A stretch of DNA of 64,000 nucleotides, taken from the NCBI GenBank assembly GCA_041650755.1, contig JBAZKN010000005.1:580-64579 (forward strand), written 5' to 3'. Below are positions 19,588-60,032 of this stretch, in pieces. This DNA comes from Patescibacteria group bacterium (GTDB lineage: Bacteria > Patescibacteriota > Patescibacteriia > UBA1558 > GWA2-36-10). A program made the position numbers and the translations under genes. The notes under the pieces are model-generated. The model worked only from the letters and a program-made list of their open reading frames with translations. It was not told where the DNA came from and did no database searches. Positions within the stretch are counted from its first letter, which is position 1, and each line of letters begins with the position of its first letter.

Positions 19588-21033
19588 TTATCCCAACATA
19601 GTCAACCTTGGCATACTAAACTGATGCTCCAGTATCTTCATAATCAGCATAGAAAAAGCATCGGCTAGGTCATCGTGTTTTTCGACCCCAAAGTTAGTTA
19701 TTTCCTGTATAAGTTCTTCGGCTCCGTGACGAGGGAAAACTACATAACCTCGTTTAACAGAATTTGAAGCTATGGCTAATCGTGATCTCTTGTCTAAGCG
19801 TCCGAAATTAACTCCTTCTACTTGCATACAGTAATCATCTTGTAATTGGTGGATAAAAGCCCGTTGGTACCCAACGTCTTCTACATAAACATCAGGATAA
19901 TCTCCTTTACGTATACTATTAGCTAAACTTTTAACTGCTTGAATAGCGTCTGGGAAAGTCAGACGTTGGTTAATGGGATGGGGCAGAATATAGATTAGGG
20001 GACGTTCGTCAACAATATAAACTAAAGCCGCGACCATAGCTGTATAATCAGCTGTGGTCTTTTCAGAAATAGCTAAGTCAATACCAATAGCTGGGAAGAA
20101 AAAATGTTCTCGACTTTTAGGGATCTCATCATAGTAGCATAGCCACTCTGGATGAATCACTCTTTCCGAGTTAGAGATAATACGCAGTAAATACTCCCTA
20201 TACCAGGCTGTATCATTTCCCACTCGCTTTTTAAGATTTCCAATACTTTCGTTATCTGGATATTTCCCAGGCCAAGCACACTGGTTGTTGTCATCTAACA
20301 GAGGATAGGAACGATATATGCCTTTGAGATTATTATCTTTAATACCCTGTTGTAATCGCATTAACACTGAATCTTCGTGTAAAAGATTGCCCACTACAAT
20401 AATGCGAGTGTTTAAGTCTCCGGCTGGAATAACATCTCCTACCAGCCATTGATGAGTCTTGTCCCGACTTTCTTTGGTCTTTACAGATTCCAAATCTTCC
20501 ACATCATCGCAAATAATTAAATCTGGTCTATATTGCCCATGTCTTAAACCCCTAATACTTTGTTCAGTAGAAGCGGCTATGATCCTAGCGTCATATTTAG
20601 GGATAACTAGAGCATAAGAACCCCATTCATCAGCTTGCTCTTCAAAAGGTCCTAAGTCAGCTCTAAGTAGTTTATTTTGCTCTAATTCTCGTTTAAGGTT
20701 CATTAAGTGCTGCCTAGCCTGTCTTTGGGTCTGACTAAGCATAACCACAAACTTCTTTTTCTGTTGTCCTAGTATTGCCCAAATTGGGTATGACATATTC
20801 ATAATCGTGGATTTTCCGGATCCACGGAAGGCCACTATAACAGCCATAGGAATACTTTCGTCTTCGGTTATAGAAAATAATTCTTTATGAAATCTGGCCG
20901 TCTCGTGAGTCACATACTTGGCAAAGTAGAGATGGAAAAATAGTAAATGACTTTGTCTAGTGATGGCTGTCCGGACTTTCCGGTCTTGGTAGACTTGCCT
21001 CAGTAGTTGAGGCGTTAACATTGTTGGGTTCAT
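19588..21033 (-). CDS. Phage terminase large subunit-like ATPase/nuclease
   Basis: Walker A 'AFRGSGKST'. Walker B-like 'LIICDDVED'. Acidic residues in the C-terminal nuclease-like half. Size and order fit terS-terL. Confidence 0.55.
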   Translation of the reverse strand: MNPTMLTPQLLRQVYQDRKVRTAITRQSHLLFFHLYFAKYVTHETARFHKELFSITEDESIPMAVIVAFRGSGKSTIMNMSYPIWAILGQQKKKFVVMLSQTQRQARQHLMNLKRELEQNKLLRADLGPFEEQADEWGSYALVIPKYDARIIAASTEQSIRGLRHGQYRPDLIICDDVEDLESVKTKESRDKTHQWLVGDVIPAGDLNTRIIVVGNLLHEDSVLMRLQQGIKDNNLKGIYRSYPLLDDNNQCAWPGKYPDNESIGNLKKRVGNDTAWYREYLLRIISNSERVIHPEWLCYYDEIPKSREHFFFPAIGIDLAISEKTTADYTAMVAALVYIVDERPLIYILPHPINQRLTFPDAIQAVKSLANSIRKGDYPDVYVEDVGYQRAFIHQLQDDYCMQVEGVNFGRLDKRSRLAIASNSVKRGYVVFPRHGAEELIQEITNFGVEKHDDLADAFSMLIMKILEHQFSMPRLTMLG

Positions 21034-21439
21034 ATATTTGTTGTTCTTTCTCGTCAGAGTCAGCGTGCAAGGCGGCTAGTTTTAAGGCCTCGGTCACGAC
21101 TGCTTGTTGCTCTGGCGTTAATACCTGGTTAGATTCTTCAAGTTTGGCGGTTACTTGGAGTTTAGTGGTGTATTGCGGATGGTGATGTTTGAGCCACATA
21201 ATAATGGCTGTCAGATTACGATCTTTAATAGCGGTAATTAATTGGGACTCCGCCATGTCGTTTATGAGCAGTGATCCTTGTAGTATGGCCTGATCAGCTT
21301 CTTTGGCAAAAGATTCGTTGTCTTTACGCAGACGATAATAGGTCGCTCTACTGATGCCAGACTTTTCACACGCTATTTGCACTATAGGAGTTTTCTTGAG
21401 CTGTTCAATCAACTCATTTTTTTGTTGCTTACTTATCAT
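20957..21439 (-). CDS. HTH DNA-binding protein (possible terminase small subunit)
   Basis: 'IACEKSGISRATYYRLRK' helix-turn-helix. Overlaps the terL start. Confidence 0.4.
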   Translation of the reverse strand: MISKQQKNELIEQLKKTPIVQIACEKSGISRATYYRLRKDNESFAKEADQAILQGSLLINDMAESQLITAIKDRNLTAIIMWLKHHHPQYTTKLQVTAKLEESNQVLTPEQQAVVTEALKLAALHADSDEKEQQIYEPNNVNASTTEASLPRPESPDSHH

Positions 21440-22766
21440 GACCGTGTAATTTAATAGTTTTTTTACCAGTTAGTTTTTTCCAACGCTTTTTGATCACTTC
21501 TGTATAGACGGGGGATTTTTCCATGATATAGCATCTGCGCTTCATTTTGGTGGCCGCTATTAACGTTGAACCAGAGCCACCAAATGGCTCGACAATGAGG
21601 TCATCGCGCTTGGTAAGGACTTTGATATATGGAATAAGAATTTCTACTGGTTTGGTGCCGAAAATCACTCCTTGACCAGAGCTTTTCTCGTCCGAGGCCT
21701 TATAGTCAATAAAGTCAGTTGGGGCGTACTTCTTGCCTTTTTGATAGCCTTCCCAATGGGGTTTACCGGCTATGGCGTATAAGGCGGTTTCGTATTCATT
21801 TTGAAGTGGCGTTTCTTCTGTGGATAGATTTAGTTCTAAACTGTCTTTACTACTGCCCACCATAGCTATATCGTGTTTTGAGAAAAATTTATACTTAGCC
21901 GCAAAGCCCTGGGTTCTATTGGGTAGTCGCCAAACTATCATATTTTTAACCTTCCAATACTTTTCCATTTCTGCCCAAATAGTTCTAAGATTTTTCCAAT
22001 TCTCATAGACTATGATATGAAAATCATCTTTGGCTATTTTGGCAATATTTTTCATCCACAATTCAGTAAAATTATCAGGCAAACTATCTGTACCCAAATA
22101 CCGTCTATCTCGCTTATAGCCGAAGCCCTCGCTAGACTTATGTTTCTTTTTACCTTTTAAATAATTTAATATATAAGGTGGATCGGTTAGACACATGTCA
22201 GCACTAACACCATTCATTAATTTTAGCATGTCGGCCTCAATAGTGGAGTCACCACACATCAGGCGACTGCCATCTAACTCATAAACATCACCTTTTTTAG
22301 TTTGAATGTTTTTAATATCTAATTTAGCCAGTTCTTTTTGGAGGTCAAATTTTTCTGGTTCTATATCTATATCAAAGATATCATCCAGTTCTTCGCTGCT
22401 GAAACCAAGATTTACTAGGAACGACTCGTCAAATTCAGCTAGTAGCTTAAAGTCAAATTCACCAGTGTTTTTATTGAGCCTTAGATTAAGCTCTTTTTCT
22501 TTTTCTAGATTAGGAATATTGACATAGACTACTGGCACTGTCTTATATCCCAAATCTTTAGCTATTTTGAGTCTAAAATGACCGCCAATGACCACATTCT
22601 CCCGACCTTTGGCTGAATTGCAGATAATAGGGTCTACTAGTCCATATCTGTTAATGCTGTCTGTTAAGTCCTGGATAGCCTTTTGACTCCACTTCCTAGG
22701 GTTGTAGGAAGCGGGACTTAATACCTTAGGATCAAGGTATTGGATTTTGAGGTTGTTTTTGTCCAT
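21429..22766 (-). CDS. ParB-like nuclease domain fused to an N6-adenine/N4-cytosine DNA methyltransferase
   Basis: N-terminal ParB-N 'VVIGGHFRLKIAKDLGY'. Methyltransferase motif IV 'CLTDPPYILNY'. Motif I 'VEPFGGSGST'. Confidence 0.7.
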   Translation of the reverse strand: MDKNNLKIQYLDPKVLSPASYNPRKWSQKAIQDLTDSINRYGLVDPIICNSAKGRENVVIGGHFRLKIAKDLGYKTVPVVYVNIPNLEKEKELNLRLNKNTGEFDFKLLAEFDESFLVNLGFSSEELDDIFDIDIEPEKFDLQKELAKLDIKNIQTKKGDVYELDGSRLMCGDSTIEADMLKLMNGVSADMCLTDPPYILNYLKGKKKHKSSEGFGYKRDRRYLGTDSLPDNFTELWMKNIAKIAKDDFHIIVYENWKNLRTIWAEMEKYWKVKNMIVWRLPNRTQGFAAKYKFFSKHDIAMVGSSKDSLELNLSTEETPLQNEYETALYAIAGKPHWEGYQKGKKYAPTDFIDYKASDEKSSGQGVIFGTKPVEILIPYIKVLTKRDDLIVEPFGGSGSTLIAATKMKRRCYIMEKSPVYTEVIKKRWKKLTGKKTIKLHGHDK

Positions 22767-22793
22767 GGTTTTATTGGTTAATAATTAATCTTA

Positions 22794-23153
22794 TTATCGT
22801 TTTTTATCTAGAATTCCGGCTAGCTTAAGGAACATTTCAACGGCCTTTGGATTACCTTTAGTTGAGGCATTGCTATATAGCCCTCCGATGGCATCGGGAA
22901 CGCGATCTTTTACCCAAACACTTATTTCGCTTTGCACAAGTGGCCAGAATTGCACGTCTTTCGTCCAATCAGTTAAGGTGTCCTCACAGACTCCGATTTG
23001 TTTTGCAAATTCCTTTTGTGTTTCGGGATTACGAAACTTATAAGGCGTAGCAAACCATTTGGCAAATAGTATAAATTCAGATACCCGCTGAACCCCGGGC
23101 ACGACTTTTATAGAATCGGAGTCAATCGGAGCGAGGGTTTTGTTTTTAGTCAT
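22794..23153 (-). CDS. Small HTH-containing phage-like protein
   Basis: 'TQKEFAKQIGVCEDTLTDW'. Confidence 0.3.
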   Translation of the reverse strand: MTKNKTLAPIDSDSIKVVPGVQRVSEFILFAKWFATPYKFRNPETQKEFAKQIGVCEDTLTDWTKDVQFWPLVQSEISVWVKDRVPDAIGGLYSNASTKGNPKAVEMFLKLAGILDKKR

Positions 23154-23252
23154 AGCTTAGTAATTAGTTAAATGAAAAAAGAGCCATTATTATCATAGCT
23201 CTTTTTCAAATAGTCCATTCCGAGTTCCGCTCGAGTTCCGTTTTGTAATGTT

Positions 23253-24392
23253 TTAGCTTATCTTAGCAATTTTTCTTTTGCTTCTTTTTAAGTCATTTCG
23301 ATGGGCCTTTACACATGCGATTGATCCACATGTTATTTGCCATTTGTTGCGGGGCTTAAAATTACTCTTACAAATAGGGCATGTTTTATTAATAAATCCA
23401 GTTAAAACTTGCTTTACAGTTTCTTCTTTTTCAGTCAGAAAATATAAGAAAGCATTAATAATATAAATCATGTAATGCGTGTCCTCAAGACTAGCAATAT
23501 CATTGTCGTTTAGAGATTTAATATATGCTGTTTTAATTTTATTACTGCGAGCAGATTCGTTAATCAAGCTTTTTTTCGAAATAAATTCTCGCCAGTCATA
23601 TATAAATTCTTTGGTTAGTTTATACTTATCTAAGATTTTTTTTGCCCGTTCTTTAAAAATAGGGGATATATCAAAATCGTACTCCTGTCCCCATTCTATT
23701 TTTGAAGGTTTATGTCCATATGCCTCTCGGTATTGTGTATATTTTTCTCTTTTTTTCTTTTCAAATAATTTATGTATTTTTTCCATCTCATGGTATATCT
23801 CTAGAAATTTATATAAGTCAGCTATCCTTTTCTGGATGGACGCTATTATTTTTTTTCTATCAATATCATTTTTGTGTTCTTTAATCCATATCAAATATGG
23901 TAGAGCAATTTTTATGGCAAGTATTTGCTTTTTATCGTATAAAAATTCATATTGTTTTTTTATGGCACTAGCACTGGTGTAAAAATCAGAAAACTGTCTT
24001 TGCTTCCAGGCAAAAGATTTCTGTTGCGACGGCCACTCTACCATATTGTTATCAAAATAATAATCGAGCCAATGATCATTAAGTTTTCCGAGACTACCGA
24101 TGCAATAGTAATTTTTTCTGTCCAATTTTATAATTTTAAATTTGTCTAAATCCTTAGGGTGGATATAACGCCATTCATTTAGTCCGTTAAAAGAAGCATA
24201 TACTCTTTTAAACTCCACAACCCCTAAATATACTTTTAAGGCGGGGAAGACTAATTTATGCTTATGTAGCTCCTCTAGGGTATTTTTATCAATCTTAAGC
24301 CCGTTATCTTGGCAGTAGCCAACGAAAAAAGACATATGGATTAAACCCCCCTGATTGAGCGGCATTTGGGTTTTAAACTCTGTAGCTTCCAT
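23253..24392 (-). CDS. Hypothetical protein with a C-terminal Cys4 zinc-ribbon
   Basis: 'CPICKSNF...CGSIACVKAH'. No other motifs recognised. Confidence 0.3.
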   Translation of the reverse strand: MEATEFKTQMPLNQGGLIHMSFFVGYCQDNGLKIDKNTLEELHKHKLVFPALKVYLGVVEFKRVYASFNGLNEWRYIHPKDLDKFKIIKLDRKNYYCIGSLGKLNDHWLDYYFDNNMVEWPSQQKSFAWKQRQFSDFYTSASAIKKQYEFLYDKKQILAIKIALPYLIWIKEHKNDIDRKKIIASIQKRIADLYKFLEIYHEMEKIHKLFEKKKREKYTQYREAYGHKPSKIEWGQEYDFDISPIFKERAKKILDKYKLTKEFIYDWREFISKKSLINESARSNKIKTAYIKSLNDNDIASLEDTHYMIYIINAFLYFLTEKEETVKQVLTGFINKTCPICKSNFKPRNKWQITCGSIACVKAHRNDLKRSKRKIAKIS

Positions 24393-24458
24393 TTATTTAA
24401 CGTTTTTCTTAGTATTTTTTATTTTATTCGCAAATCCCTAATTTACGGGGTAGAGTAT

Positions 24459-24487
24459 TTGACAATCTTTGTATATTTGTATATAAT
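24459..24487 (+). promoter_or_regulatory. Consensus sigma70-like promoter upstream of the lexA-like gene
   Basis: TTGACA (24459-24464), 17 nt spacer, TATAAT (24482-24487). ATG lies at 24496. Confidence 0.5.
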
Positions 24488-24495
24488 ACTAGTGT

Positions 24496-25167
24496 ATGAA
24501 ATATACCAAAAAACCAACAAAAGGGCAACTGGAAGTACTGGATTTTATTCAGAAATATATAGAAAAGCACAATATTCCACCACTTATTGAGGACATAAAA
24601 TCAGCTTTTCAGTTTAAATCAACACGCTCTGTCACCCAATATCTAGATGCTTTAACCAGACAAGGGTACATAGAAAGGAATCGTAAACAAAAAAGAGGCA
24701 TACAGTTAGTTAATCATTATCAAGAACCAGGGCTAGACACTGTTTTAGTTCCTTTGCGTGGCACAGTTTCCTGTGGTCAGCCTAGTTTCTACGCTGATGA
24801 CAACATAGAGAATTTTTATTCAGTTGATAGCAGGTTATTGACCAGTAAAGTGAATAATTATTTTTTGGTGAGATCTTGCGGAAACTCCATGAACAGAGCG
24901 GGTATAGAAGATAATGATTTGGTGTTGGTAGAAAAAACTGATTATTTTGCAAACGGAGATAGGGTTGTAGCAGTTATTGATGGTCTGGCTACTATAAAGA
25001 ATTTTTCCAAGGGAGATTCTTCAATAGTGTTATACCCAGCTTCTTCTGATGATAAGCATAAGCCTTTAATAGTTAAAGACGATTTTAATCTGGTAGGTAG
25101 GGTAGTCGATATATTGCCAGATCCGGAATCTTTTAATGATATCAGGTATGAACCTGTAAACCAATAA
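24496..25167 (+). CDS. lexA: LexA-family repressor (winged-helix N-terminus + S24 peptidase C-terminus), either host LexA or a prophage CI-like repressor
   Basis: N-terminus 'QLEVLDFIQKYIEKHNIPPLIEDIKSAFQFKSTRSVTQYLDALTRQGYIER'. Catalytic Ser in 'CGNSM'. Lys in 'VVAVIDGLATIKNF'. Confidence 0.75.
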   Translation: MKYTKKPTKGQLEVLDFIQKYIEKHNIPPLIEDIKSAFQFKSTRSVTQYLDALTRQGYIERNRKQKRGIQLVNHYQEPGLDTVLVPLRGTVSCGQPSFYADDNIENFYSVDSRLLTSKVNNYFLVRSCGNSMNRAGIEDNDLVLVEKTDYFANGDRVVAVIDGLATIKNFSKGDSSIVLYPASSDDKHKPLIVKDDFNLVGRVVDILPDPESFNDIRYEPVNQ

Positions 25168-25181
25168 TTAATCAAGCAAGC

Positions 25182-25424
25182 ATGGCAAATTATCACGTAA
25201 CAAAAAACAAAGATATTGGCAAATGGCAGGCTAAGAAAGAAAAGGCCGATAGAGTCGCCGGCTTTTATGACACACAAGCGGAAGCCGAGGCAGCAGCGAA
25301 ACAATTTTCAGCTAATAGCGGCGGTGGTGAGGTAAGGATCCACAGCCCGAAAGGTCCAATTAGGGATAGTGATACAGTTCCACCAGGAAATGATCCTAAT
25401 CCGCCTAAAGACAGGAGATTTTAA
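25182..25424 (+). CDS. DUF2188 family protein
   Basis: 'YHVTKNKDIGKWQAKKEK...GFYDTQAEAEAAAKQ...GEVRIHSPKGPIRDSDTVPPGNDPNPPKD' matches the DUF2188 consensus pattern. Confidence 0.6.
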   Translation: MANYHVTKNKDIGKWQAKKEKADRVAGFYDTQAEAEAAAKQFSANSGGGEVRIHSPKGPIRDSDTVPPGNDPNPPKDRRF

Positions 25425-25428
25425 TCGT

Positions 25429-25857
25429 ATGGAAAAAAAATTAAAACATTTAGAATTCATACAAAACGTTATTAGCAGGATGGCTAATAACCTTTTTCTG
25501 TTGAAAGGATGGGTAGTTACTTTGGTAGCAGCACTTTTGGCTTTATTGGCATCAAATAATGCTGGTACCCAATTTATCTTTATAGCTCTAGTTCCAATTA
25601 TAATTTTCTGGCTTCTAGACGGCTATTTCTTGTCTCAAGAAAGAATGTATAGGGATCTATACAAGGATGTTGCCAAGAAGCAAGAGGATCAAATTGATTT
25701 CTCAATGGATGCTAGTAAATATAATACAGGTAGAAACAGATGGCTTAACTGCTTCTTTTCTAAAACACTGGTAATATTTTATGGTCTGCTTCTGCTATTA
25801 TTTTTAATAATTATTTACTACAATTTTGATATAAAAATTTCAATAAGTATAGGATAA
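25429..25857 (+). CDS. Small 2-3 TM membrane protein, candidate pore-forming/SLATT-like effector
   Basis: Amphipathic N-helix then TM1 'WVVTLVAALLALLAS', TM2 'FIFIALVPIIIFWLL', and a C-terminal hydrophobic helix. Start taken at ATG 25429, immediately after the DUF2188 stop. Confidence 0.35.
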   Translation: MEKKLKHLEFIQNVISRMANNLFLLKGWVVTLVAALLALLASNNAGTQFIFIALVPIIIFWLLDGYFLSQERMYRDLYKDVAKKQEDQIDFSMDASKYNTGRNRWLNCFFSKTLVIFYGLLLLLFLIIIYYNFDIKISISIG

Positions 25858-25861
25858 ACAT

Positions 25862-26422
25862 ATGTCAAGAAAAGTTTTTTACAGTTTTCATTATGAGCGG
25901 GACGCTTGGCGTGCTGGTCAGGTGCGAAACTTCAATTTACTCGCTGATGAGGATGAATATGGAATTATCGATTCAGTCGAGTGGGAAAAAATTAAGAAAA
26001 AAGGTGATGAGGCCGTAAAAAGTTGGATAAAAGATCAGCTTAAAAATACCTCTGTCACAGTTGTGTTGATTGGTGCAGAAACATCGGAAAGGCCATGGGT
26101 CAAATACGAAATTGAACAAAGCATAGAAAAAGGCAATGCTTTGTTGGGCGTTAGAATACACTCGGTTAAAACCCAGAAAAAAGAGACTGATTCTCCAGGA
26201 AAAAATCCTTTAGATTTGATTTCTCTAAAAAATGGTAAGCCTGCATCATCATTATACAAAACTCATGACTGGGTATCTGATGATGGTAGAAAGAATTTAG
26301 GTCAATGGGTTGAGGATGCATATAAAATTAGTGAATCTAAAACTAATTTAGGTACCCACGACACTAGCCCTACGCCAACCCCACGTAGCTTTACGCCTAA
26401 ATCACCCTGGTCTGTTTTATGA
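25862..26422 (+). CDS. TIR-like domain protein (DUF1863 / Thoeris ThsB-like)
   Basis: 'KVFYSFHYERDAWRAGQVRN' and 'NTSVTVVLIGAETSERPWVKYEIEQSIEKGNALLGVRIH ... GKNPLDLI' closely mirror the ThsB/DUF1863 TIR consensus, as far as it can be recalled. Confidence 0.6.
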   Translation: MSRKVFYSFHYERDAWRAGQVRNFNLLADEDEYGIIDSVEWEKIKKKGDEAVKSWIKDQLKNTSVTVVLIGAETSERPWVKYEIEQSIEKGNALLGVRIHSVKTQKKETDSPGKNPLDLISLKNGKPASSLYKTHDWVSDDGRKNLGQWVEDAYKISESKTNLGTHDTSPTPTPRSFTPKSPWSVL

Positions 26423-27105
26423 TATCAGATCAGGATAAGGATTGGTTAAGTAAATATTATCCTGGTTTGATAGTAAGCGGGAAAGAAATTTCTGGCGATA
26501 TTGAATTTGTAGCTAACTATAATAAAGACACTGACCAGTTTTCAATTTTGTATAATGGTACACCAGACTCCATTGATGGTTTAAAGTTAAGTGGTAAGTT
26601 TTCCGTTATTATTTCTGAGAGAACTAACAAAGCTTCTTCAGATCTTCCGGCACTGATTGTTAAAAATATAGATACAACTACGGATCGTCATTTTAATCAA
26701 ATGGACAAATCAGCTTGCCTTTGTAGTCCTTTAGAGGAGGGAGAGTATCTATTGCCAGAATTTAGTTTCAAGCTTTTTTTGGAAGAGCTGGTCATTCCAT
26801 TCTTGTATGGTCAAGTTTTTTATGATAAAAATGGTAAGTGGCCGTGGTCTGAATACTCACATGGTGCCGTTGGCATACTGGAATCATATTTAGATATATC
26901 CGATGCAAGTAAAGCCAGGGCTTCTATTGAAAAATTACGTTATGATACAAATTGGCCACGAGTTGAACAGGTATTAAAGCAAAAATCTTATATTAAAGGG
27001 CATACCCCTTGTTTTTGTCCAAAGGCTGATCAGATCAGGCGTTGCCATCCAAAGGCTTGGCAGGGTATTAATAAACTAAAGAATGATATAAAAGATTCAT
27101 ACTAG
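26419..27105 (+). CDS. Hypothetical protein, translationally coupled to the TIR gene (ATGA overlap)
   Basis: No recognisable motif. Cys/His pairs 'CLCSP' and 'CFCP...CHP'. Confidence 0.35.
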   Translation: MISDQDKDWLSKYYPGLIVSGKEISGDIEFVANYNKDTDQFSILYNGTPDSIDGLKLSGKFSVIISERTNKASSDLPALIVKNIDTTTDRHFNQMDKSACLCSPLEEGEYLLPEFSFKLFLEELVIPFLYGQVFYDKNGKWPWSEYSHGAVGILESYLDISDASKARASIEKLRYDTNWPRVEQVLKQKSYIKGHTPCFCPKADQIRRCHPKAWQGINKLKNDIKDSY

Positions 27106-27107
27106 AT

Positions 27108-27311
27108 ATGGGTAGGTATAGGGGAAAAAGTAGTTTTCATCGTAACTTAGGACATGATCTATATACAATAATATATTGTTCATTATTTTTTCTTTGTATA
27201 AAAATTTGGGGGGCAAATGTTATTTTAAGCAGCTGGCTTGTTTTGCTATGGCCTATAAGTTATTTCTTAGTAGGCTTTATATTAAGAAAAATAGGAGTTT
27301 GGAAGTATTAA
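27108..27311 (+). CDS. Small 2-TM membrane protein
   Basis: 67 aa with two hydrophobic helices. Confidence 0.3.
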   Translation: MGRYRGKSSFHRNLGHDLYTIIYCSLFFLCIKIWGANVILSSWLVLLWPISYFLVGFILRKIGVWKY

Positions 27312-27327
27312 TATATGCTCACAGAAT

Positions 27328-28293
27328 ATGTCATTAATATTGGGTATAAATCTTACAGATAGAATAATTTTAGCAACTGATAGTAAAGTTACTAAATCAG
27401 TTAATGGTAAACGAGAGGTAGTTGGCTATTGTACAAAATTAGTTCAGTATAATGATCGGGTTTTAAATGAAGATAAGGTTGTAAAAAATAGAAAGGATTT
27501 AGGTAACTTTATTTCCTGTATGTATGCTGGAAACAAAGATTTTTCTTTTTTTATACATCAAAAATTATCGGTTGCTTTTGAAAAGGGCGTATTATCTACA
27601 GACATCAATGTTTTACAGACACAAATTGATGATTTTTTTAAAAAAATTACTCCTGAATATGATGGAGTAAAAAAATGTCTTATGATATTTGCAGGCGTAT
27701 CATTGAGTGGTTCCATAAAGATATTTAGTTTTAAGCGTCTATCAGATTTAATAGGTCCCCAAGCTGGCCACGTAGAAGATCCTAATATAGTAGGGGCATT
27801 ACAATTTGCATCACAAGATTCAGATACTACTCCATTGATGAATAGAGAAAACAATTATTTTGTGCCGGATCAGAAATTATTTTCTTTTGAGATAGACGAA
27901 GATAGACATAAATTTGGCATAGGAAAAATTGGTGGTACTTATTCAGTTGTAGCTGGCGGGTCAACCACCATTGATGAGAATCTGGAAAACAAGATTCTAA
28001 AATATTTTTTAACCAAAAGGGATATTAAAGCCGAGGCTTCGGATATTATAAACTTTATTAGAAGTAATTTTTCCGATAGTATTGGTGGTGCAGTAGTATT
28101 AGGGTATATTGATACAAGGGGTATTCTGACCAATGTGAGTTATCAAGTTGATAGATCAGGAGAAATTAATGATAAAAACTGGTCCATAGAAATTAATGGT
28201 AAAGATTTTATAGCTTTAGATCCGGAAAGCAAAAGAATTGATTTATTAGAATATTTTTTTAATGGTTCAGGCGATAGCGATTGTTTGTTATAG
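27328..28293 (+). CDS. HslV/proteasome-beta-like Ntn-hydrolase-fold protein with a C-terminal extension
   Basis: The N-terminus 'MSLILGINLTDRIILATDSKVT...KLVQYNDRV...YAGNKDFSFF' parallels HslV '[21 protein letters not shown]...RRLYNDKV...FAGGTADAFTLF'. Residue 2 is Ser rather than Thr. Confidence 0.4.
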   Translation: MSLILGINLTDRIILATDSKVTKSVNGKREVVGYCTKLVQYNDRVLNEDKVVKNRKDLGNFISCMYAGNKDFSFFIHQKLSVAFEKGVLSTDINVLQTQIDDFFKKITPEYDGVKKCLMIFAGVSLSGSIKIFSFKRLSDLIGPQAGHVEDPNIVGALQFASQDSDTTPLMNRENNYFVPDQKLFSFEIDEDRHKFGIGKIGGTYSVVAGGSTTIDENLENKILKYFLTKRDIKAEASDIINFIRSNFSDSIGGAVVLGYIDTRGILTNVSYQVDRSGEINDKNWSIEINGKDFIALDPESKRIDLLEYFFNGSGDSDCLL

Positions 28294-29943
28294 GATTTTA
28301 TCCTCAATAAGAAAATCAATCTTGCTAACCTTACTCGGCTGATTTGGATCATTATAAGCTTTAAGTTTTATAGGAAGTGACCCATATAGGGTTATTTTTT
28401 TGTTTAGAAAAACTATCTTATCTATATAGTCCAGTAAAAACTCTCTTTTAGTATTAAAGTTGGTAGCTTGCTCAAATCTTGTTTTAGCTACTTCATAGAA
28501 TTGTTTGACGCTTGTTTCTATTACTTGCTTCTTGTGTAGTCTAGGCATTTTATTTATAAGCTGATTTTTTTGTGTTTTTAGATTATCTATTTCTTTTTCA
28601 CACAGGGAGCAATTTTTGGAATATAAGGTTCTAGTAATTTTGCTCTTGGCGTAATCATCTAGATATTGTTTTTTATCTTTGGTAATTTTTAATATACTAT
28701 TTTCAATATCGCTGATTTCATTTTCTACTTTTTCATGAGTTAAGCCATTTTTAGTTTTCATGTAGTCAGTACAAAGTAGTAATCTGTCAGGATCAAGTAG
28801 CGTGTCTTTAATCATTTTAAAAACACATTTTTCTATTTTTGGTGCTGATACCTCGGGATTTTTACACAAGTATTTATCCATTTTCTTAGAGTGCATCCTG
28901 TTTTTTACCTTTAGCCCACAGTGATAGGCAACTTTGTAAGTTATTTTAGAAGATCCATCTACTAGTTTATATTTATAATATCTCTGATAGGGTATATAGT
29001 TTCTACCGCAATTACCACATCGTATTAATCCAGATAGTAATTGTTCTTCTGATTTTTTCTTATAGACCTTTTTATTTTTGTCCAGTCTCTTTTGGACTTT
29101 ATCAAATAAGCCTTTGGAAATAATAGCTGGAACTTTGACGGCAATCCACTCTGATTTGTCTTTTTCTATTCTTTTGCCATATTTAATTTTATAAATAGAC
29201 TTCTCAGGTTTTTTCTCATATTTAGTTTTATTAAAATATTTTATGCCATAGTAGGTGGTATTGGTCAGTATGTGCCTTAATTTTTCGGTATCCCATAATT
29301 TTAAACCTAAATGAGTTTTAATACCTTTTTCTTCTAAATATACAATTAGTTGTTTCCAGCTTATTCCCTTAGCATATTGCTCATATATGTATTTAACTAT
29401 TTTAGCTTCATCCTTGTTGATTATCATTTTAGCCGGAGTTTTGTTTGTGCGTTTGATATAAGTATAGCCAAACATATTAGCACCACTGTTTAATACCTGA
29501 CCTTGTTTTAGTTTATGGATTTTACCTCTTAGGCTTCTTTCAATTATTTTGGCACGCTCCAGTTCAGAAACCGCACCCAGAACCGTTAAAGCAAATTTGT
29601 TCTCTGGATTATGGACATAATCCTTGCCGTTTATAATAATCTGCTTTTTGTATTTTAGAATCTCAGCAATGATAATTGTCTGGTAAGTTACTTCTCTGGC
29701 AATTCGGTCAGTATTTAAAAAATAAATCGTATCAAATAAATCGCTTTTTAAGTCATCTCTTAACTTATTCATTCCTGGTCTATCCAACTGTGCACCAGAG
29801 TATCCGTCGTCAATATACTCTTTGATTAAAACGTCATTATTTTCTTTTATTTGTTTTTTAAGCTCAGCGATTTGGCTCTCTATGGTTCTTTCTTTTTCCT
29901 GCAGAGCCGAACTAACTCGGGCGTATAGTACTGCTTTTTTCAT
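28288..29943 (-). CDS. Large serine recombinase (resolvase/invertase N-domain + recombinase + zinc-ribbon)
   Basis: 'KKAVLYARVSSALQ' catalytic Ser. Cys-rich zinc ribbon 'CGNCGRNY...YHCG'. C-terminal coiled-coil. Confidence 0.8.
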   Translation of the reverse strand: MKKAVLYARVSSALQEKERTIESQIAELKKQIKENNDVLIKEYIDDGYSGAQLDRPGMNKLRDDLKSDLFDTIYFLNTDRIAREVTYQTIIIAEILKYKKQIIINGKDYVHNPENKFALTVLGAVSELERAKIIERSLRGKIHKLKQGQVLNSGANMFGYTYIKRTNKTPAKMIINKDEAKIVKYIYEQYAKGISWKQLIVYLEEKGIKTHLGLKLWDTEKLRHILTNTTYYGIKYFNKTKYEKKPEKSIYKIKYGKRIEKDKSEWIAVKVPAIISKGLFDKVQKRLDKNKKVYKKKSEEQLLSGLIRCGNCGRNYIPYQRYYKYKLVDGSSKITYKVAYHCGLKVKNRMHSKKMDKYLCKNPEVSAPKIEKCVFKMIKDTLLDPDRLLLCTDYMKTKNGLTHEKVENEISDIENSILKITKDKKQYLDDYAKSKITRTLYSKNCSLCEKEIDNLKTQKNQLINKMPRLHKKQVIETSVKQFYEVAKTRFEQATNFNTKREFLLDYIDKIVFLNKKITLYGSLPIKLKAYNDPNQPSKVSKIDFLIEDKIL

Positions 29944-31621
29944 AGCTTAGTTTATTATATTCTTTATTAGTTATTTGCTTATTATCTAATAATCCATCTT
30001 TTTTATCTTGTCGTTGTAGTTTCTTAAGGGCTTGTAGTCTATTTATCTTATTGGTTATTACAAAAGCTAGTTTAGTATTTTTAATAGTCACAAAGCCGTA
30101 TAGTTTTATTTCATCAACACCTTTGTTATGGATATATTCTATTTTAGAGACGTATCTTTGTAAGAAATCTTTTGTTTTTAATTTAGAAAAATCAGCTTTA
30201 GCATGGTTGGAATAACTCAGCACACTATTTCCTATTTCTTGAGGATTATTAAAAACTGGCATCGATTGTGCCAGTTCTTTGTTTGTTTTTTCCAGTGATT
30301 GTATGTTTTTGTCATAACCATTAACTTTTTCTACATAGGTTTCTCTTTCCAGATCTCCTAAGGAGTATAGATCAACAATTCTTTGCTTTTGTTTTTGGAT
30401 AGATTTTATCTGGGTTTTGATTTGTTTGATTTCTTTTTCAACTTTAGCTTGGTTAACAGCATTGCTTTTGGAAAAATAATCCATACAGTTTTTTAGTTTA
30501 TCGGGATCAAAGACATATTTTTCAATCATCTTGAATATTTGCGGTTCTAATATTTTACTGTTAATTTCCCGGTTGTGGGCTTTATATAAACTACCGCCGC
30601 ATTTATATATTGTTCTTTGATAAATTTTTGTTTCTTTTTTCCTATATACTTTATAACACCTATGATAAGCAAAACATCTTTTATGACATACGCCGCAAAA
30701 AACTATATTGGATAAGGGCTGAGTGTTTTTAGCGTTGCGGTAGCACTCCAAATTATATTTAATTTTACTCTGCACTTTATCAAATAAATCTTTATCAATA
30801 ATTTGCGGAATCTTGATGCCAATCCAAGTTGACCTGTCTGTTGGCACTCGTCGTATAGTTTTACTTCTACCCTCAAGCCGATTTAAAGCATTGGTGTCAG
30901 TTGTAGTATTAAAATATCTTATACCAGTGTATGTTTCGTTATCTAACATTATTCTTATATGATACCAAGTCCATTTTCTACCTCGACGAGGTGGAATATT
31001 TTTTTCTTTTATCTTTTTAACTATTTCTCTGAAACTTATATTACCCTGGGCATAAAGTTTAAAAATATAGTTAACAACCTTAGCTTCTTTAGGATTGATT
31101 TCATATGAAGGAAAGGACTTATCACTTTTGGGAATATAATTGTAGCCATAAATGTTGCATCCGTGTGATAGTAGTTGCCCTTGCTTTAATCTATATTGCC
31201 TGCCTCGCATACTACGTTCTAGTATTTTAGTTTTTTCCAGCTCGGCTACAGCCCCAAGCACCGTTAAAGTAAACTTGTTCTCGGGGTTATGAATATAGTC
31301 CTCGCCGTTAATAATAATCTGTTTCTTATGCCGCAGAATTTCCCCGATGATGATATTTTGGTAAGTGACATCTCGGGCGATTCTGTCAGCGTTATGGAAA
31401 TAGATGCTATCAAATTTATTAGTTTTAATATCTTCCCGTAATTTATCCATCCCAGGTCTACTGAGCATAGCTCCGCTGTAGCCGTCATCTACATATTCTT
31501 TTACTAGAATATTGCCGACTTTTTTGATCTGCTTTTTGAGCTCGTCTACCTGACTTTCTATAGTTCTTTCCTTTTCTTGCAGGCTTGAGCTTACCCTAGC
31601 GTATAATACTGCTTTTTTCAT
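29912..31621 (-). CDS. Large serine recombinase (second tandem copy)
   Basis: 'KKAVLYARVSSSLQ' and 'CGVCHKRCFAYHRC...YKCG'. About 45% identity to its neighbour. Confidence 0.8.
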   Translation of the reverse strand: MKKAVLYARVSSSLQEKERTIESQVDELKKQIKKVGNILVKEYVDDGYSGAMLSRPGMDKLREDIKTNKFDSIYFHNADRIARDVTYQNIIIGEILRHKKQIIINGEDYIHNPENKFTLTVLGAVAELEKTKILERSMRGRQYRLKQGQLLSHGCNIYGYNYIPKSDKSFPSYEINPKEAKVVNYIFKLYAQGNISFREIVKKIKEKNIPPRRGRKWTWYHIRIMLDNETYTGIRYFNTTTDTNALNRLEGRSKTIRRVPTDRSTWIGIKIPQIIDKDLFDKVQSKIKYNLECYRNAKNTQPLSNIVFCGVCHKRCFAYHRCYKVYRKKETKIYQRTIYKCGGSLYKAHNREINSKILEPQIFKMIEKYVFDPDKLKNCMDYFSKSNAVNQAKVEKEIKQIKTQIKSIQKQKQRIVDLYSLGDLERETYVEKVNGYDKNIQSLEKTNKELAQSMPVFNNPQEIGNSVLSYSNHAKADFSKLKTKDFLQRYVSKIEYIHNKGVDEIKLYGFVTIKNTKLAFVITNKINRLQALKKLQRQDKKDGLLDNKQITNKEYNKLSYEKSSTIRPS

Positions 31622-57447: not shown

Positions 57448-57522
57448 GGCCTCTTCGTCTAGCGGTTAGGACACTAGGTTCTCATCCTAGTAACAGGGGT
57501 TCGATTCCCCTAGAGGTCACCA
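57448..57522 (+). tRNA. tRNA-Glu (anticodon CTC)
   Basis: Cloverleaf read by eye: acceptor ggcctct/agaggtc, D-loop tagcggtta, anticodon loop ttCTCat, T-loop ttcgatt, CCA end. Confidence 0.85.
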
Positions 57523-57652
57523 AAAGAAAATAGCTTTGCGAGTTAAGGGTTTTTACACTCCGAAGCCCGAAGGGCGTAGGATGGGCGATTCCCTGCTGTG
57601 CCCCGCGAAGTCCCGTGGAGCGGGACGGAGTGGGGTGGGGTCACCATTTTAG

Positions 57653-57729
57653 GGGTGCATAGCTCAGTTGGTTAGAGCGTTGCGTTCACATCGCAAAGGT
57701 CCCTGGTTCGAGTCCAGGTGTACCCACCA
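57653..57729 (+). tRNA. tRNA-Val (anticodon CAC)
   Basis: Acceptor gggtgca/tgtaccc, D-loop agttggtta, anticodon loop ttCACat, T-loop ttcgagt, CCA end. Confidence 0.8.
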
Positions 57730-57732
57730 TTC

Positions 57733-57840
57733 GATTCCCCTGCACCATGCGGTGCAGGGTCGCTCGTGGTCTTCGACCATTCGATAGTTAATTTATGCTA
57801 CGAAGTCGAGGGGTATTCGCCGCAAGATCACTGTTACAAG
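57733..57840. repeat. tRNA T-arm fragment (ttcgattcccct) plus a perfect hairpin cctgcaccatgcggtgcagg (related copy at 59365-59388)
   Basis: Duplicate of tRNA-Glu positions 57499-57510. The hairpin motif recurs downstream of the GT39 gene. Confidence 0.4.
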
Positions 57841-57867
57841 TCAGTGGTTTTTTGATATAATATAATC

Positions 57868-59349: not shown

Positions 59350-59415
59350 TTTTTATAAAAAGAAAACCGCCCCGCACCATACGGTGCAGGACGGCACTTG
59401 TCCGCGAATGCTAGT

Positions 59416-59814: not shown

Positions 59815-60032
59815 TGAGAATCCTTTCTGTGCTAAGGTCCTTCTTTTGCATTCTGTTTTTTGTGCTTTCGCACATTCCAGGGAACATTTGCCTTGCGGCA
59901 GTTTACAATTAATATTATATCATATATAGTATATTTTGTCAAGAATAGTAAAAATCAACCTTTTATTATTGACATTAAGTCTTTTTTTTGTTAATATTGA
60001 ACGCGTATTTTAAGAAGCAATAAAATTAATCT

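What the first reader, a model, noticed from the sequence alone, without database searches (positions are those of the whole stretch)
24459..28293. Candidate undescribed TIR-centred defence operon (DUF2188 - TM protein - ThsB-like TIR - unknown - 2TM - HslV/proteasome-like) under a LexA-type repressor
Six co-oriented genes (25182-28293) are packed with 0-5 nt gaps or overlaps (ATGA coupling at 26419). They lie immediately downstream of a lexA-family repressor gene that has a consensus promoter. The 186-aa protein looks like a Thoeris ThsB / DUF1863 TIR domain, with matches 'VFYSFHYE', 'NTSVTVVLIGAETSERPWVKYEIEQSIEKGNALLG' and 'GKNPLDLI'. None of the usual Thoeris partners (SIR2-SLOG or Macro ThsA) is present. 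Instead the TIR gene is flanked by a small 2-3 TM protein that resembles membrane-disrupting effectors such as SLATT. It is also flanked by an unknown 228-aa protein, a 67-aa 2TM peptide, and a 321-aa protein whose N-terminus parallels HslV/proteasome beta subunits (Ntn-hydrolase fold, with Ser instead of the catalytic Thr). That gene combination does not match any well-described defence system. The operon sits on a phage/satellite-like island, which is a typical defence hotspot. Placement under a LexA-like repressor suggests SOS- or induction-coupled expression.
Basis: partly seen in the sequence, partly recalled or inferred. Interest (0 to 1): 0.85.

Follow-up and report, generated by a model that had tools for sequence, protein, structure and literature searches.

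The report
E2-regulated TIR defence cassette, LexA-controlled
This stretch of a Patescibacteria mobile element carries a probable anti-phage system: a TIR signalling enzyme, a small membrane killer protein, a ubiquitin-E2-like regulator that recognises a tag on the TIR's tail, and a LexA-type repressor. The two genes after it, one of them proteasome-like, are separate cargo.

Summary
All the genes exist as described, and so does a perfect TTGACA-17-TATAAT promoter. The "six-gene system" reading is only partly right.

- **Conserved unit (24459-27105).** It comprises a LexA-like S24 repressor, DUF2188 (PADLOC PDC-S16), a 3-TM protein (PDC-M50A), a ThsB-type TIR (PDC-M50B/ThsB) and the "unknown 228-aa" protein.
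- **What sits upstream of this E2 elsewhere.** In 26 genome loci the E2 follows a ThsB TIR (16), a CD-NTase (7) or a metallo-beta-lactamase-fold protein (1).
- **Shared tail.** Every one of these partners ends in the same tail, [FL]xPxxP[WH]. In the window it reads RSFTPKSPWSVL.
- **Tail tracks E2.** 44 of 45 TM-linked TIRs from metagenomes have neither tail nor E2. The 45th has both.
- **The 67-aa and 321-aa genes are separate.** They never accompany the E2 or TIR elsewhere.

Verdict: a new variant of a known kind, namely a Thoeris-like system with E2-only regulation. Function is inferred, not tested.

The parts
24459..24487 (+). Sigma-70-type promoter TTGACA-17-TATAAT for the operon. The -10 box ends 8 nt before the lexA-like ATG, so the leader is very short or absent. 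The spacer holds a direct repeat, TTGTATAT x2.
   Evidence: 12/12 consensus match, the best site in 24000-28700. Sequence read. Any operator role for the repeat is inference only.
24496..25167 (+). LexA-like autocleavable repressor: winged-helix DNA-binding domain plus S24 peptidase. Putative cleavage site Cys93-Gly94, with Ser131 and Lys168 as the catalytic dyad.
   Evidence: - TIGR00498 lexA, 146 bits, above the 110.95 cutoff.
- Pfam LexA_DNA_bind 4e-15 and Peptidase_S24 6e-20.
- Residue positions.
- Same-strand LexA-like genes head related cassettes in L016, L019, L025, L026, L028, L030, L031, L033, L039 and L096.
25182..25424 (+). DUF2188 protein (PADLOC single-gene candidate PDC-S16). It probably travels with the repressor as part of the regulatory head of the operon.
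   Evidence: - Pfam DUF2188 7.7e-18 and PADLOC PDC-S16 1.2e-18.
- It directly follows the LexA-like gene in L016 (74% identity) and L033 (58%), even though L016 has a different downstream enzyme.
- DUF2188 genes after CapP/CapH regulators are reported in 10.1101/2022.04.27.489752.
25429..25857 (+). 142-aa three-TM protein, the candidate TIR-signal-activated membrane effector (PADLOC PDC-M50A). It has a conserved N-terminal KHLEFIQxxIxRMAxNxFLLKGW and a cytosolic loop FWxLDxYxLxxER...LY...IDFSM.
   Evidence: - PDC-M50A 7.4e-52 and phrog_19896 2e-47.
- No SLATT hit; only a weak DUF3278 hit below cutoff.
- Alignment A4 and hydropathy.
In the best 80, most loci with enough flanking sequence have an adjacent ThsB/TIR_2 gene.
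25862..26422 (+). ThsB-type TIR protein, the predicted producer of an NAD+-derived signal. The TIR domain spans residues 1-157 with Glu83 at the catalytic position, followed by a low-complexity linker and a C-terminal tag.
   Evidence: - Pfam ThsB_TIR 1.5e-26; PADLOC ThsB1 8e-64 and PDC-M50B 7.5e-61.
- 48%, 45% and 41% identity to the TIR domains of published type III, type I and type XI Thoeris ThsBs.
- Alignment.
26390..26410 (+). C-terminal tag F177-T-P-K-S-P-W183 of the TIR protein, the proposed docking or processing site for the E2.
   Evidence: - The motif [FL]xPxxP[WH] ends all 16 genome-locus TIRs, all 7 CD-NTases and the 1 MBL-fold protein encoded directly upstream of this E2 family.
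- It is absent from 44 of 45 TM-linked TIRs that have no E2. The one with the tag (L096) has an E2.
- It is absent from the second TIR of the ThsA-type loci.
26419..27105 (+). E2 (ubiquitin-conjugating-fold) protein of the CBASS 'type II short' kind. It has no E1 or JAB domain. Invariant residues are Arg90-His91, Cys100 and Cys102, plus a C-terminal Cys198/Cys200/Cys209/His210 cluster.
   Evidence: - PADLOC E2 models, 9e-30 to 2e-13; no Pfam hit.
- Family alignment A1.
- AF2 model, pLDDT 75.6.
27108..27311 (+). 67-aa two-TM peptide. It is adjacent cargo and not part of the conserved cassette, though it may pair with the next gene.
   Evidence: - No family hit.
- No homologue in any E2 or TM locus.
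- L001 has a 124-aa TM protein before its 321-aa homologue that ends KWIGFWRY, compared with RKIGVWKY here.
27328..28293 (+). 321-aa orphan protein with a proteasome-beta/HslV-like (Ntn-hydrolase) N-terminal half and a C-terminal extension of unknown function. It is a separate cargo gene.
   Evidence: - Only 7 close homologues and 76 representatives in 1.84 billion proteins.
- Invariant Asp18, Lys37, Gly68 and Gly123, with an N-terminus of M-[TS]-L-I.
- 12 of 53 family members hit Pfam Proteasome. The best, P0162, scores 31 bits against a cutoff of 22.4.
- The profile-vs-PDB search gives weak hits, mostly proteasome beta subunits aligned from Thr1.
- Its homologues sit in unrelated neighbourhoods.

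Best explanation
Positions 24459-27105 hold one operon that encodes a Thoeris-like abortive-infection system with two regulatory layers. It is carried in the cargo slot of a Patescibacteria mobile element.

1. **Transcription.** The LexA-like repressor gene is the first gene of the operon, behind a consensus promoter. This is shown. It probably controls that promoter and is inactivated by RecA-stimulated self-cleavage at Cys93-Gly94, which would tie expression to DNA damage or phage replication. That step is inferred. DUF2188 travels with the repressor as an accessory of unknown role.
2. **Signalling.** The ThsB TIR, with Glu83 at the catalytic position, senses infection and converts NAD+ into an ADP-ribose-derived signal. 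This is inferred from 41-48% identity to validated ThsBs. It is also supported by the same TIR-E2 pair being found with a canonical ThsA SIR2-SLOG effector in other genomes.
3. **Killing.** The signal activates the 142-aa three-TM protein, which oligomerises and breaches the membrane. This is inferred from its near-obligate adjacency to TIR genes of several clades.
4. **Post-translational control.** The E2 binds the TIR's C-terminal F-x-P-x-S-P-W tag. Acting without an E1, it uses His91 and Cys100/Cys102 to process and covalently capture the TIR, holding it inactive or priming it, or to conjugate it. This would parallel how the Serratia E2 handles CdnG. The step is inferred from the strict tag-E2 co-occurrence and from the same tag on CD-NTases.

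The 67-aa and 321-aa genes downstream are independent cargo that may be co-transcribed.
For: - **Gene identities:**
- **Same five-gene order:** LexA-DUF2188-TM-TIR-E2 recurs in L033. LexA-TM-TIR-E2 is found in L025, L026, L028 and L096. TM-TIR-E2 without LexA is found in L011, L020, L021, L032 and L036.
- **Effector swapping:** the TIR(60% identity)-E2(52%) pair is followed by a second TIR and ThsA SIR2-STALD in L007/L008, L012, L014, L015 and L017. The TIR is therefore a signal maker with exchangeable effectors.
- **Same E2 family in CBASS:** the E2 (41-55% identity) closes bona fide CBASS operons, SAVED-nuclease or patatin plus CD-NTase.
- **Tag-E2 link:** 25 of 25 upstream enzymes carry the tag, against 0 of 44 TM-linked TIRs without an E2.
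- **E2 fold and catalytic-type residues:**
- **Mechanistic precedent:** in E2-CBASS the cGAS C-terminal tail is threaded into the E2 pocket. Cys101 and His87 cleave after the C-terminal Gly and form thioester and isopeptide links, which inhibit cGAS until poly-cGASylation (10.1101/2022.05.25.493364; PMC12948482).
- **TM family tied to TIRs:**
- **Promoter:**
- **Regulatory precedent:** DNA-damage-responsive regulators, sometimes with DUF2188, head immune operons (10.1101/2022.04.27.489752).
Against: - Nothing was tested functionally. There is no defence phenotype, no signal molecule and no E2-TIR adduct.
- PDC-M50 is only a PADLOC candidate. I found no paper that names it.
- The TM protein has no recognisable ligand-binding domain.
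- The tag differs from the Serratia CdnG C-terminus, which is a structured alpha/beta motif ending in Gly. The Gly often found before the Phe is Ser in the window and Pro, Val or Ile in some other loci. The chemistry may therefore differ.
- No conserved operator was found across LexA-headed loci.
- In Patescibacteria loci the LexA-like gene always abuts the same terminase/ParB-methylase backbone. It could be the element's own immunity repressor rather than a cassette-specific regulator. In that case SOS might switch the operon off rather than on.
Confidence: 0.65

Rival explanations
1. All six or seven genes, including the 67-aa peptide and the proteasome-like 321-aa protein, form a single undescribed TIR-centred system. 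An extreme version pairs the E2 with the proteasome-like protease as a minimal conjugation-degradation pair.
For: - The genes are co-oriented with gaps of 2 and 16 nt. No convincing terminator lies between 27105 and 27328, so co-transcription is likely.
- An E2 next to a proteasome-like protein is suggestive.
Against: - No homologue of either gene occurs in the 26 E2 genome loci or the 80 TM loci.
- tblastn finds no TIR, E2, TM or LexA homologue in four of the places carrying a 321-aa homologue, L001-L004.
- L037 and L038 were checked only from their called genes and by blastp of the two genes flanking the homologue, with no match.
- What follows the E2 differs in every related locus: HEPN, unknown genes or opposite-strand genes.
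- L002 has the same element backbone (ParB-methylase 70% identical) and the 321-aa gene, but different cargo in between.
Confidence: 0.07
2. The LexA-like protein is the mobile element's own CI-type immunity repressor, transcribed divergently from the element's terminase/ParB-methylase genes. The defence genes simply ride on the repressor transcript, as rexAB ride behind cI in phage lambda. They would then be expressed in the quiescent state rather than induced by SOS.
For: - The repressor diverges from a minus-strand block: a 379-aa protein, an HTH protein, ParB-methylase, a small-terminase-like HTH and a TerL-like protein.
- The same backbone (TerL 49-55% identity) abuts the LexA-like gene in L016, L025, L028 and L033, with different cargo in L016.
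- TM-TIR-E2 cassettes in Acidobacteriota lack LexA.
Against: - A same-strand S24 repressor also heads the SAVED-CD-NTase-E2 operon of a Chitinophagaceae MAG that lacks this backbone.
- The one backbone locus without an E2 cassette (L002) has no LexA-like gene.
- L024 has an HTH plus M78 peptidase pair at the same position, a known immune-operon regulator type.
- The two readings are not mutually exclusive.
Confidence: 0.2
3. The TIR is not a signal generator but the toxic NADase effector itself. The TM protein would be a sensor or anchor, and the E2 an antitoxin-like inhibitor.
For: - TIR domains act as NAD+-depleting effectors in CBASS, Pycsar and pAgo systems (10.64898/2025.12.03.692087).
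- Covalent E2 linkage inhibits the partner enzyme in E2-CBASS.
Against: - The same tagged TIR-E2 pair sits with a canonical ThsA SIR2-SLOG effector, which needs a TIR-made signal.
- The TIR is 41-48% identical to ThsBs shown to make signals.
- The other tagged partners of this E2 are signal synthases, namely CD-NTases.
- The TM protein pairs with several different TIR clades, as expected for an effector.
Confidence: 0.08

Closest known systems
PADLOC candidate system PDC-M50 (A = small TM protein, B = ThsB-like TIR), with PDC-S16 (DUF2188)
   Same: The window TM protein and TIR hit PDC-M50A (7e-52) and PDC-M50B (7.5e-61) and are adjacent and co-oriented. The DUF2188 gene hits PDC-S16.
   Different: - PDC-M50 as modelled has two genes. 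Here, and in about 10 related loci, an E2 and often a LexA-like repressor are added, and the TIR carries a C-terminal tag.
- 44 of 45 ordinary TM-TIR loci lack both the tag and the E2.
- PDC-M50 is an unvalidated candidate, and no paper in the searchable library names it.
Thoeris TIR-signalling defence systems (types I-XI; Yirmiya et al., bioRxiv 10.64898/2025.12.03.692087), including the reported Thoeris operons with Cap2+Cap3
   Same: - A ThsB-family TIR sits next to a putative effector.
- Membrane effectors are known: type II Macro-TM, type VII SLATT, type X ion channel.
- Some Thoeris operons have borrowed CBASS ubiquitin-like ancillary genes, and their TIRs have a C-terminal tail for conjugation.
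   Different: - The effector here is a 142-aa 3-TM protein with no Macro, SLOG or SLATT domain.
- The ancillary protein is an E2 alone, with no E1 domain and no JAB/Cap3.
- The tail is an FxPxSPW tag rather than the Cap2-type Gly tail.
- I could not establish whether the paper's untested '3TM' class is this family.
E2-CBASS (type II 'short' CBASS; Serratia marcescens CdnG-E2, PDB 8hsb)
   Same: - An E1-independent E2 is encoded directly after the signal-making enzyme.
- It has an E2 fold with conserved His and two Cys residues.
- The partner has a special C-terminal extension.
- Members of this very E2 family close genuine SAVED/patatin + CD-NTase operons.
   Different: - The window has no CD-NTase. 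The partner is a TIR.
- This E2 subfamily is about 230 aa against about 160 aa. It has an extra C-terminal Cys2-Cys-His cluster, and no sequence-level hit to any PDB chain.
- The partner tail is a disordered linker plus a short tag, not an alpha-helix/beta-sheet motif ending in Gly.
DNA-damage-responsive regulators of immune operons (CapH/CapP, CapW, CapK/CapS) and lambda cI-rexAB
   Same: - A stress-cleavable repressor is encoded at the head of an abortive-infection operon.
- DUF2188 genes are known to follow CapP/CapH.
- L024 has an HTH+M78 pair where others have LexA.
   Different: - Here the regulator is a single-chain LexA/S24 self-cleaving repressor on the same strand as the operon and as its first gene.
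- I found no report of LexA-type regulators for Thoeris or CBASS in the searched papers.
Proteasome beta-subunit / HslV / Anbu / BPH Ntn-hydrolases (for the 321-aa protein only)
   Same: - The N-terminus is M-[ST]-L-I, with Asp18 and Lys37 at positions equivalent to Thr1/Asp17/Lys33.
- There are transitive Pfam Proteasome hits.
   Different: - There is no direct Pfam, NCBIfam or PADLOC hit for the window protein.
- It has an extra C-terminal part (about residues 200-321; boundary judged from the length of proteasome beta subunits, not measured).
- The family is very rare: 76 representatives.
- No HslU-like ATPase or alpha-subunit partner is present.
- The structure model has low confidence (pLDDT 48).

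Membership tests
Thoeris (TIR-signalling anti-phage system) | ThsB-type TIR protein with the catalytic glutamate | tested here: met
   Pfam ThsB_TIR 1.5e-26 and PADLOC ThsB 8e-64. Glu83 in WVKYEI aligns with the Glu of WVRYEI in B. cereus ThsB. That this Glu is the catalytic residue is from my knowledge of the family.
Thoeris (TIR-signalling anti-phage system) | Adjacent effector with a recognised signal-binding domain (SLOG, Macro, or another validated ThsA-L type) | tested here: not met
   The TM protein has no Pfam domain above cutoff: no SLOG, Macro or SLATT. Only the conserved adjacency to TIR genes is met.
Thoeris (TIR-signalling anti-phage system) | TIR makes an ADPR-derived signal on infection that activates the effector, giving phage protection | not testable with these tools
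   Needs phage challenge and LC-MS.
PADLOC PDC-M50 | Adjacent genes matching the PDC-M50A and PDC-M50B models | tested here: met
   7.4e-52 and 7.5e-61, genes 4 nt apart on the same strand.
E2-CBASS (type II short CBASS) | CD-NTase (oligonucleotide cyclase) gene in the operon | tested here: not met
   No cyclase or SMODS hit for any of the seven window proteins. Related loci with the same E2 family do have one.
E2-CBASS (type II short CBASS) | Stand-alone E2-fold protein with a catalytic Cys/His, and no E1 or JAB | tested here: met
E2-CBASS (type II short CBASS) | Covalent linkage of the E2 to the C-terminus of the signal synthase | not testable with these tools
   Only indirect support: strict co-occurrence of the C-terminal tag and the E2.
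Cap2/Cap3-type (E1E2/JAB) ancillary module | E1 (ThiF-like) domain fused to the E2, plus a JAB peptidase | tested here: not met
   The protein is 228 aa, with E2 models covering residues 59-223. There is no ThiF or JAB hit anywhere in 24459-28293.
LexA / S24 self-cleaving repressors | N-terminal LexA-type DNA-binding domain plus an S24 domain with a Ser-Lys dyad and an Ala/Cys-Gly cleavage site | tested here: met
   TIGR00498 above cutoff and both Pfam domains. Cys93-Gly94, Ser131 and Lys168 located. UmuD also uses Cys-Gly (my knowledge).
LexA / S24 self-cleaving repressors | Binds an operator in its own promoter, with RecA*-stimulated cleavage | tested here: inconclusive
   No inverted-repeat operator was found, and there is no motif shared with related loci. 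Cleavage is not testable here.
SLATT membrane effectors | Match to a SLATT profile | tested here: not met
   No SLATT family at E<=1 in Pfam, and no CBASS 2TM or SLATT effector model in PADLOC.
Proteasome beta / HslV Ntn-hydrolases (321-aa protein) | N-terminal Thr/Ser nucleophile exposed after Met removal, with the Asp17 and Lys33 equivalents | tested here: met
   The family N-terminus is M-[TS]-L-I. Asp18 and Lys37 are invariant in 53 sequences. The profile-PDB alignment starts at proteasome Thr1.
Proteasome beta / HslV Ntn-hydrolases (321-aa protein) | Significant profile match or a confident alpha-beta-beta-alpha fold | tested here: inconclusive
   - No direct hit for the window protein.
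- 12 of 53 relatives hit PF00227, one above cutoff.
- PDB profile E-values are 0.4-2.5.

The most novel reading that the evidence does not exclude
This roughly 230-aa, E1-independent E2 family, together with the short C-terminal tag [G]F-x-P-x-[SA]-P-W, forms a portable plug-in regulator. The tag has been grafted onto at least three unrelated classes of immune enzyme: CD-NTases, ThsB TIRs, and a metallo-beta-lactamase-fold enzyme paired with a membrane protein (L016). If so, E2-only control is not a CBASS peculiarity but a general post-translational switch for nucleotide-signal immunity. The MBL-fold partner could mark a still unknown signalling system. In Patescibacteria these cassettes are wired to an SOS-type repressor on a family of terminase-encoding mobile elements.
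Probability: 0.5. Interest if true: 0.72.

Novelty: new variant of a known kind. Interest (0 to 1): 0.58.

Why it matters
- **Extends E2-only control beyond CBASS.** If the E2 acts on the TIR through the shared tag, the E2-only ('ubiquitin-imitating') control known from CBASS also applies to Thoeris-type TIR signalling.
- **Gives a testable recognition element.** A seven-residue tag found on three enzyme classes can be moved, deleted or mutated.
- **Adds a regulator type.** A LexA-type repressor joins the known DNA-damage-responsive regulators of abortive-infection operons.
- **Documents defence cargo in Patescibacteria.** These tiny-genome episymbionts have little-studied immunity. Here the cargo sits on a recurring mobile element.
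- **Flags a rare protein family.** The 321-aa protein belongs to a rare proteasome-beta-like family that lives in defence-island-like neighbourhoods.

Tried and rejected
- **SLATT identity of the TM protein.** No Pfam SLATT hit at E<=1. There is only a DUF3278 hit below cutoff.
- **Functional link between the E2/TIR and the 67-aa/321-aa genes.** Rejected by reciprocal absence in related loci.
- **Sequence-level PDB match for the E2.** None meaningful. Fold comparison was needed.
- **Direct family hit for the 321-aa protein.** None in Pfam, NCBIfam, PHROGs or PADLOC. The 7-sequence profile against the PDB gave nothing. The AF2 model was poor at pLDDT 48. The assignment rests on the wider family.
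- **Phage origin.** Neither the E2 family nor the 321-aa family was found in IMG/VR viral contigs.
- **Shared LexA operator.** No perfect 6-bp inverted repeat in any of the nine upstream regions examined. A looser scan of the window region found one 12-nt, 83%-complementary arm pair 58 nt apart. I saw no motif common to the loci.
- **Minus-strand 'LexA' hits near some TM-TIR loci** (L054, L063, L069, L100, L110). Where checked (L054, L063, L110) they lie inside 505-542-aa proteins; in L100 the hit lies in a 214-aa ORF. None of them was counted as a LexA-like regulator.
- **Equivalence with the '3TM' effector class of Yirmiya et al.** Their listed 3TM-linked TIRs give only weak hits to my TM loci, and the stored supplementary table is truncated. 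This is unresolved.
- **Literature.** No paper found for 'PDC-M50' or for E2-CBASS together with Thoeris. Burroughs & Aravind 2020 is not in the searchable library, so prior mention of E2-TIR neighbourhoods there cannot be excluded.

Full report
**What is in the sequence.** Seven co-oriented ORFs lie on the + strand between 24496 and 28293.

| Gene | Coordinates | Length |
|---|---|---|
| LexA-like | 24496-25167 | 223 aa |
| DUF2188 | 25182-25424 | 80 aa |
| TM protein | 25429-25857 | 142 aa |
| TIR | 25862-26422 | 186 aa |
| "Unknown" protein | 26419-27105 | 228 aa |
| Small peptide | 27108-27311 | 67 aa |
| Last gene | 27328-28293 | 321 aa |

- A GGAG 11 nt upstream favours the ATG at 25429 for the TM gene over the GTG at 25369.
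- The gaps are 14, 4, 4, -4, 2 and 16 nt.
- A perfect TTGACA-17-TATAAT promoter lies at 24459-24487, 8 nt before the first ATG.
- The cluster ends convergently against two large serine recombinase genes.
- The exact protein look-up places the window in a Patescibacteria MAG contig of 249,924 bp.

**Gene identities.**
- The first gene passes NCBI's lexA equivalog cutoff, 146 bits against 111, and has both LexA Pfam domains. It has Cys93-Gly94, Ser131 and Lys168.
- The second is DUF2188, which is PADLOC PDC-S16.
- The TM protein is PADLOC PDC-M50A at 7e-52. It has three hydrophobic segments and no SLATT match.
- The TIR matches ThsB_TIR at 1.5e-26, PADLOC ThsB at 8e-64 and PDC-M50B at 7.5e-61. 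Glu83 sits at the catalytic position.
- The "unknown" 228-aa protein has no Pfam hit but matches seven PADLOC CBASS-type E2 or E1-E2 models, with E-values from 9e-30 to 3e-9.
  - The family alignment has invariant Arg90-His91, Cys100 and Cys102. It also has a C-terminal Cys198/Cys200/Cys209/His210 cluster that I read as a zinc site.

**Which genes belong together.** The E2 family has 306 detectable relatives of about 232 aa. I examined its neighbourhoods in 26 species-level genome loci and in several metagenome loci.

| Gene directly upstream of the E2 | Genome loci |
|---|---|
| ThsB TIR, 53-65% identical to the window's | 16 |
| CD-NTase | 7 |
| Metallo-beta-lactamase-fold protein | 1 (L016) |
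| Unknown, at a contig edge | 2 |

- Among the TIR loci, nine have the window's TM protein upstream. These are L011, L020, L021, L025, L026, L028, L032, L033 and L036.
- L033 (Paceibacterota) repeats the full order LexA-DUF2188-TM-TIR-E2.
- Four genome loci (L012, L014, L015, L017) and the metagenome loci L007/L008 instead have TIR-E2 followed by a second TIR and a canonical ThsA SIR2-SLOG. L013, L018 and L022 show the second TIR but no ThsA hit.
- The CD-NTase loci are ordinary E2-type CBASS operons with SAVED-nuclease or patatin effectors.
- No locus contains a homologue of the 67-aa or 321-aa genes.

**The tag.**
- All 16 genome-locus TIRs, the window TIR, all 7 CD-NTases and the MBL-fold protein end with a variable low-complexity linker followed by the same short motif. 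It is typically G-F-x-P-[RKH]-[SA]-P-W-(C). In the window it reads R-S-F-T-P-K-S-P-W-S-V-L.
- As a control I anchored a search on the TM protein instead. In the best 80, most loci with enough flanking sequence have an adjacent TIR of one of several clades.
- Of 45 complete TM-adjacent TIRs, 44 stop right after the TIR domain, lack the motif and have no E2. The single exception, L096, has GGFTPRSPW and an E2.
- The second TIR of the ThsA-type loci also lacks the motif.
- Tag and E2 therefore co-occur strictly, whatever enzyme carries the tag.

**Mechanism proposed.** Published work on Serratia E2-CBASS shows how a related E2 works.
- Cys101 and His87 trim the tail after its C-terminal Gly and form interconvertible thioester and isopeptide links.
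- The E2-linked enzyme is inhibited, and poly-cGASylation activates it (10.1101/2022.05.25.493364; PMC12948482).

I infer that the window E2 handles the ThsB tail in a comparable, E1-independent way. The tail here is a short linear tag rather than a structured motif, and the Gly is not invariant, so the chemistry may differ.

The TIR is best read as a signal generator, for three reasons.
- It is 41-48% identical to validated ThsBs.
- The same TIR-E2 pair works with ThsA effectors elsewhere.
- The E2's other partners are signal synthases.

The 3-TM protein is then the effector, by its near-obligate linkage to TIRs.

**Regulation.**
- Same-strand LexA-like genes head the cassette in the window and in L016, L019, L025, L026, L028, L030, L031, L033, L039 and L096. 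Those tabulated are only about 30-41% identical to the window's; L019 and L031 are closer to L009's S24 repressor.
- L024 has an HTH plus M78 peptidase pair at that position.
- DUF2188 follows LexA in three loci, including L016, where the downstream enzyme differs. This fits the earlier report of DUF2188 behind CapP/CapH regulators.
- I found no shared operator.
- One caveat applies. In Patescibacteria the LexA-like gene always abuts a conserved minus-strand backbone of TerL-like, small-terminase-like HTH and ParB-methylase genes. It may double as, or simply be, the element's immunity repressor, with the defence genes riding on its transcript as rexAB do behind lambda cI. Whether SOS turns the operon on or off is therefore open.

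**The last two genes.**
- The 321-aa protein has only 7 close homologues and 76 representatives in 1.84 billion proteins.
- Its relatives sit next to unrelated genes: MmeI-type R-M, an AAA_13 ATPase, DUF3644 and an ORC/CDC6-like gene.
- L002 shares the window's element backbone (ParB-methylase 70% identical) but has different cargo before the 321-aa gene.
  - The family begins M-[TS]-L-I, with invariant Asp18 and Lys37.
  - 12 of 53 members hit Pfam Proteasome, one above the gathering cutoff.
  - Weak PDB profile hits are mostly proteasome beta subunits aligned from Thr1.
- The 67-aa peptide may pair with the 321-aa gene. L001 has a TM protein with a similar C-terminus before its homologue.
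- The function of both genes is unknown.

**Comparison with what is known, and novelty.**
- TM+TIR is PADLOC candidate PDC-M50, and DUF2188 is PDC-S16.
- Thoeris now has 11 validated and about 18 putative effector types. Operons with Cap2+Cap3, or with Cap9-11, have been noted (10.64898/2025.12.03.692087).
- I found no description of the following points:
  - an E2-only Thoeris;
  - this tag;
  - the tag's presence on three enzyme classes;
  - LexA-type control of such cassettes.
- Coverage of the literature is incomplete. Burroughs & Aravind 2020 is not searchable.
- The locus fails membership of E2-CBASS because it has no CD-NTase. It fails the Cap2/Cap3 type because it has no E1 or JAB. It meets only the TIR half of the Thoeris definition.
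- I rate it a new variant of a known kind. Everything functional is inference from sequence, structure prediction and gene neighbourhoods.

Noticed in passing
L016:4489-7678 (Patescibacteria UBA6220, DISC01000006.1): The order here is a LexA-like gene, DUF2188, a 197-aa membrane protein, a 345-aa metallo-beta-lactamase-fold protein and the same E2 family. The MBL-fold protein ends ...KPFSPKSPWCSL. It is a third enzyme class carrying the E2 tag, and possibly an undescribed signalling system.
   Followed up: partly
L024:3942-7702 (Zambryskibacteria); also L019, L030, L031: E2-type CBASS operons (SAVED effector + CD-NTase + this E2) are headed either by a LexA-like S24 repressor (L019, L030, L031) or, in L024, by a small ORF (111 aa, not examined) plus an M78 metallopeptidase (HEARH) pair that resembles CapH/CapP.
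   Followed up: partly
window 19588-24392 (- strand) and 28288-31621 (- strand): The element backbone consists of a TerL-like 481-aa protein, a small-terminase-like HTH, a ParB-N6/N4 methylase, an HTH protein, a 379-aa protein with a C-terminal Cys cluster, and two tandem overlapping large serine recombinases. The TerL/HTH/ParB-methylase block recurs next to the cassettes of L016, L025, L028 and L033, and next to the 321-aa gene in L002. This points to one family of Patescibacteria mobile elements with a variable cargo slot.
   Followed up: partly
window 24459-24498: The -10 box ends 8 nt before the lexA-like ATG, so the mRNA is leaderless or nearly so. The promoter spacer contains the direct repeat TTGTATAT twice. 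Related loci (L026, L033) also have TTGCAA-17-TATACT promoters about 12 nt before the ATG.
   Followed up: partly
window 26419-27105, residues 193-211: The E2 family has an invariant KGHTxCFC-x8-RCHP cluster at its C-terminus. It looks like a SEC-C-type zinc knuckle. It is absent from the 159-aa Serratia E2 and is modelled with low confidence (pLDDT <50).
   Followed up: no
L003:1558-6496, L004, L001:227-8324, L038:131-3624: Relatives of the proteasome-like 321-aa protein sit beside an 825-aa AAA_13/SMC_N ATPase plus a 486-aa unknown (L003/L004), a DUF5677 protein, an MmeI-type R-M and a T5orf172 helicase (L001), or an ORC/CDC6-like protein (L038). These are defence-island-like neighbourhoods with no constant partner.
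   Followed up: partly
window 8968-16722 and 17340-18296: There is a 2584-aa ORF, followed by a 318-aa ORF with a weak teneurin YD-shell match, just upstream of the low-GC island. This could be a toxin-delivery or surface protein locus.
   Followed up: no
window 16000-38000: GC content is 31-36% here against 41-47% in the flanks. This is consistent with horizontally acquired DNA. No tRNA lies next to the island; the nearest are at 57448-63115.
   Followed up: partly
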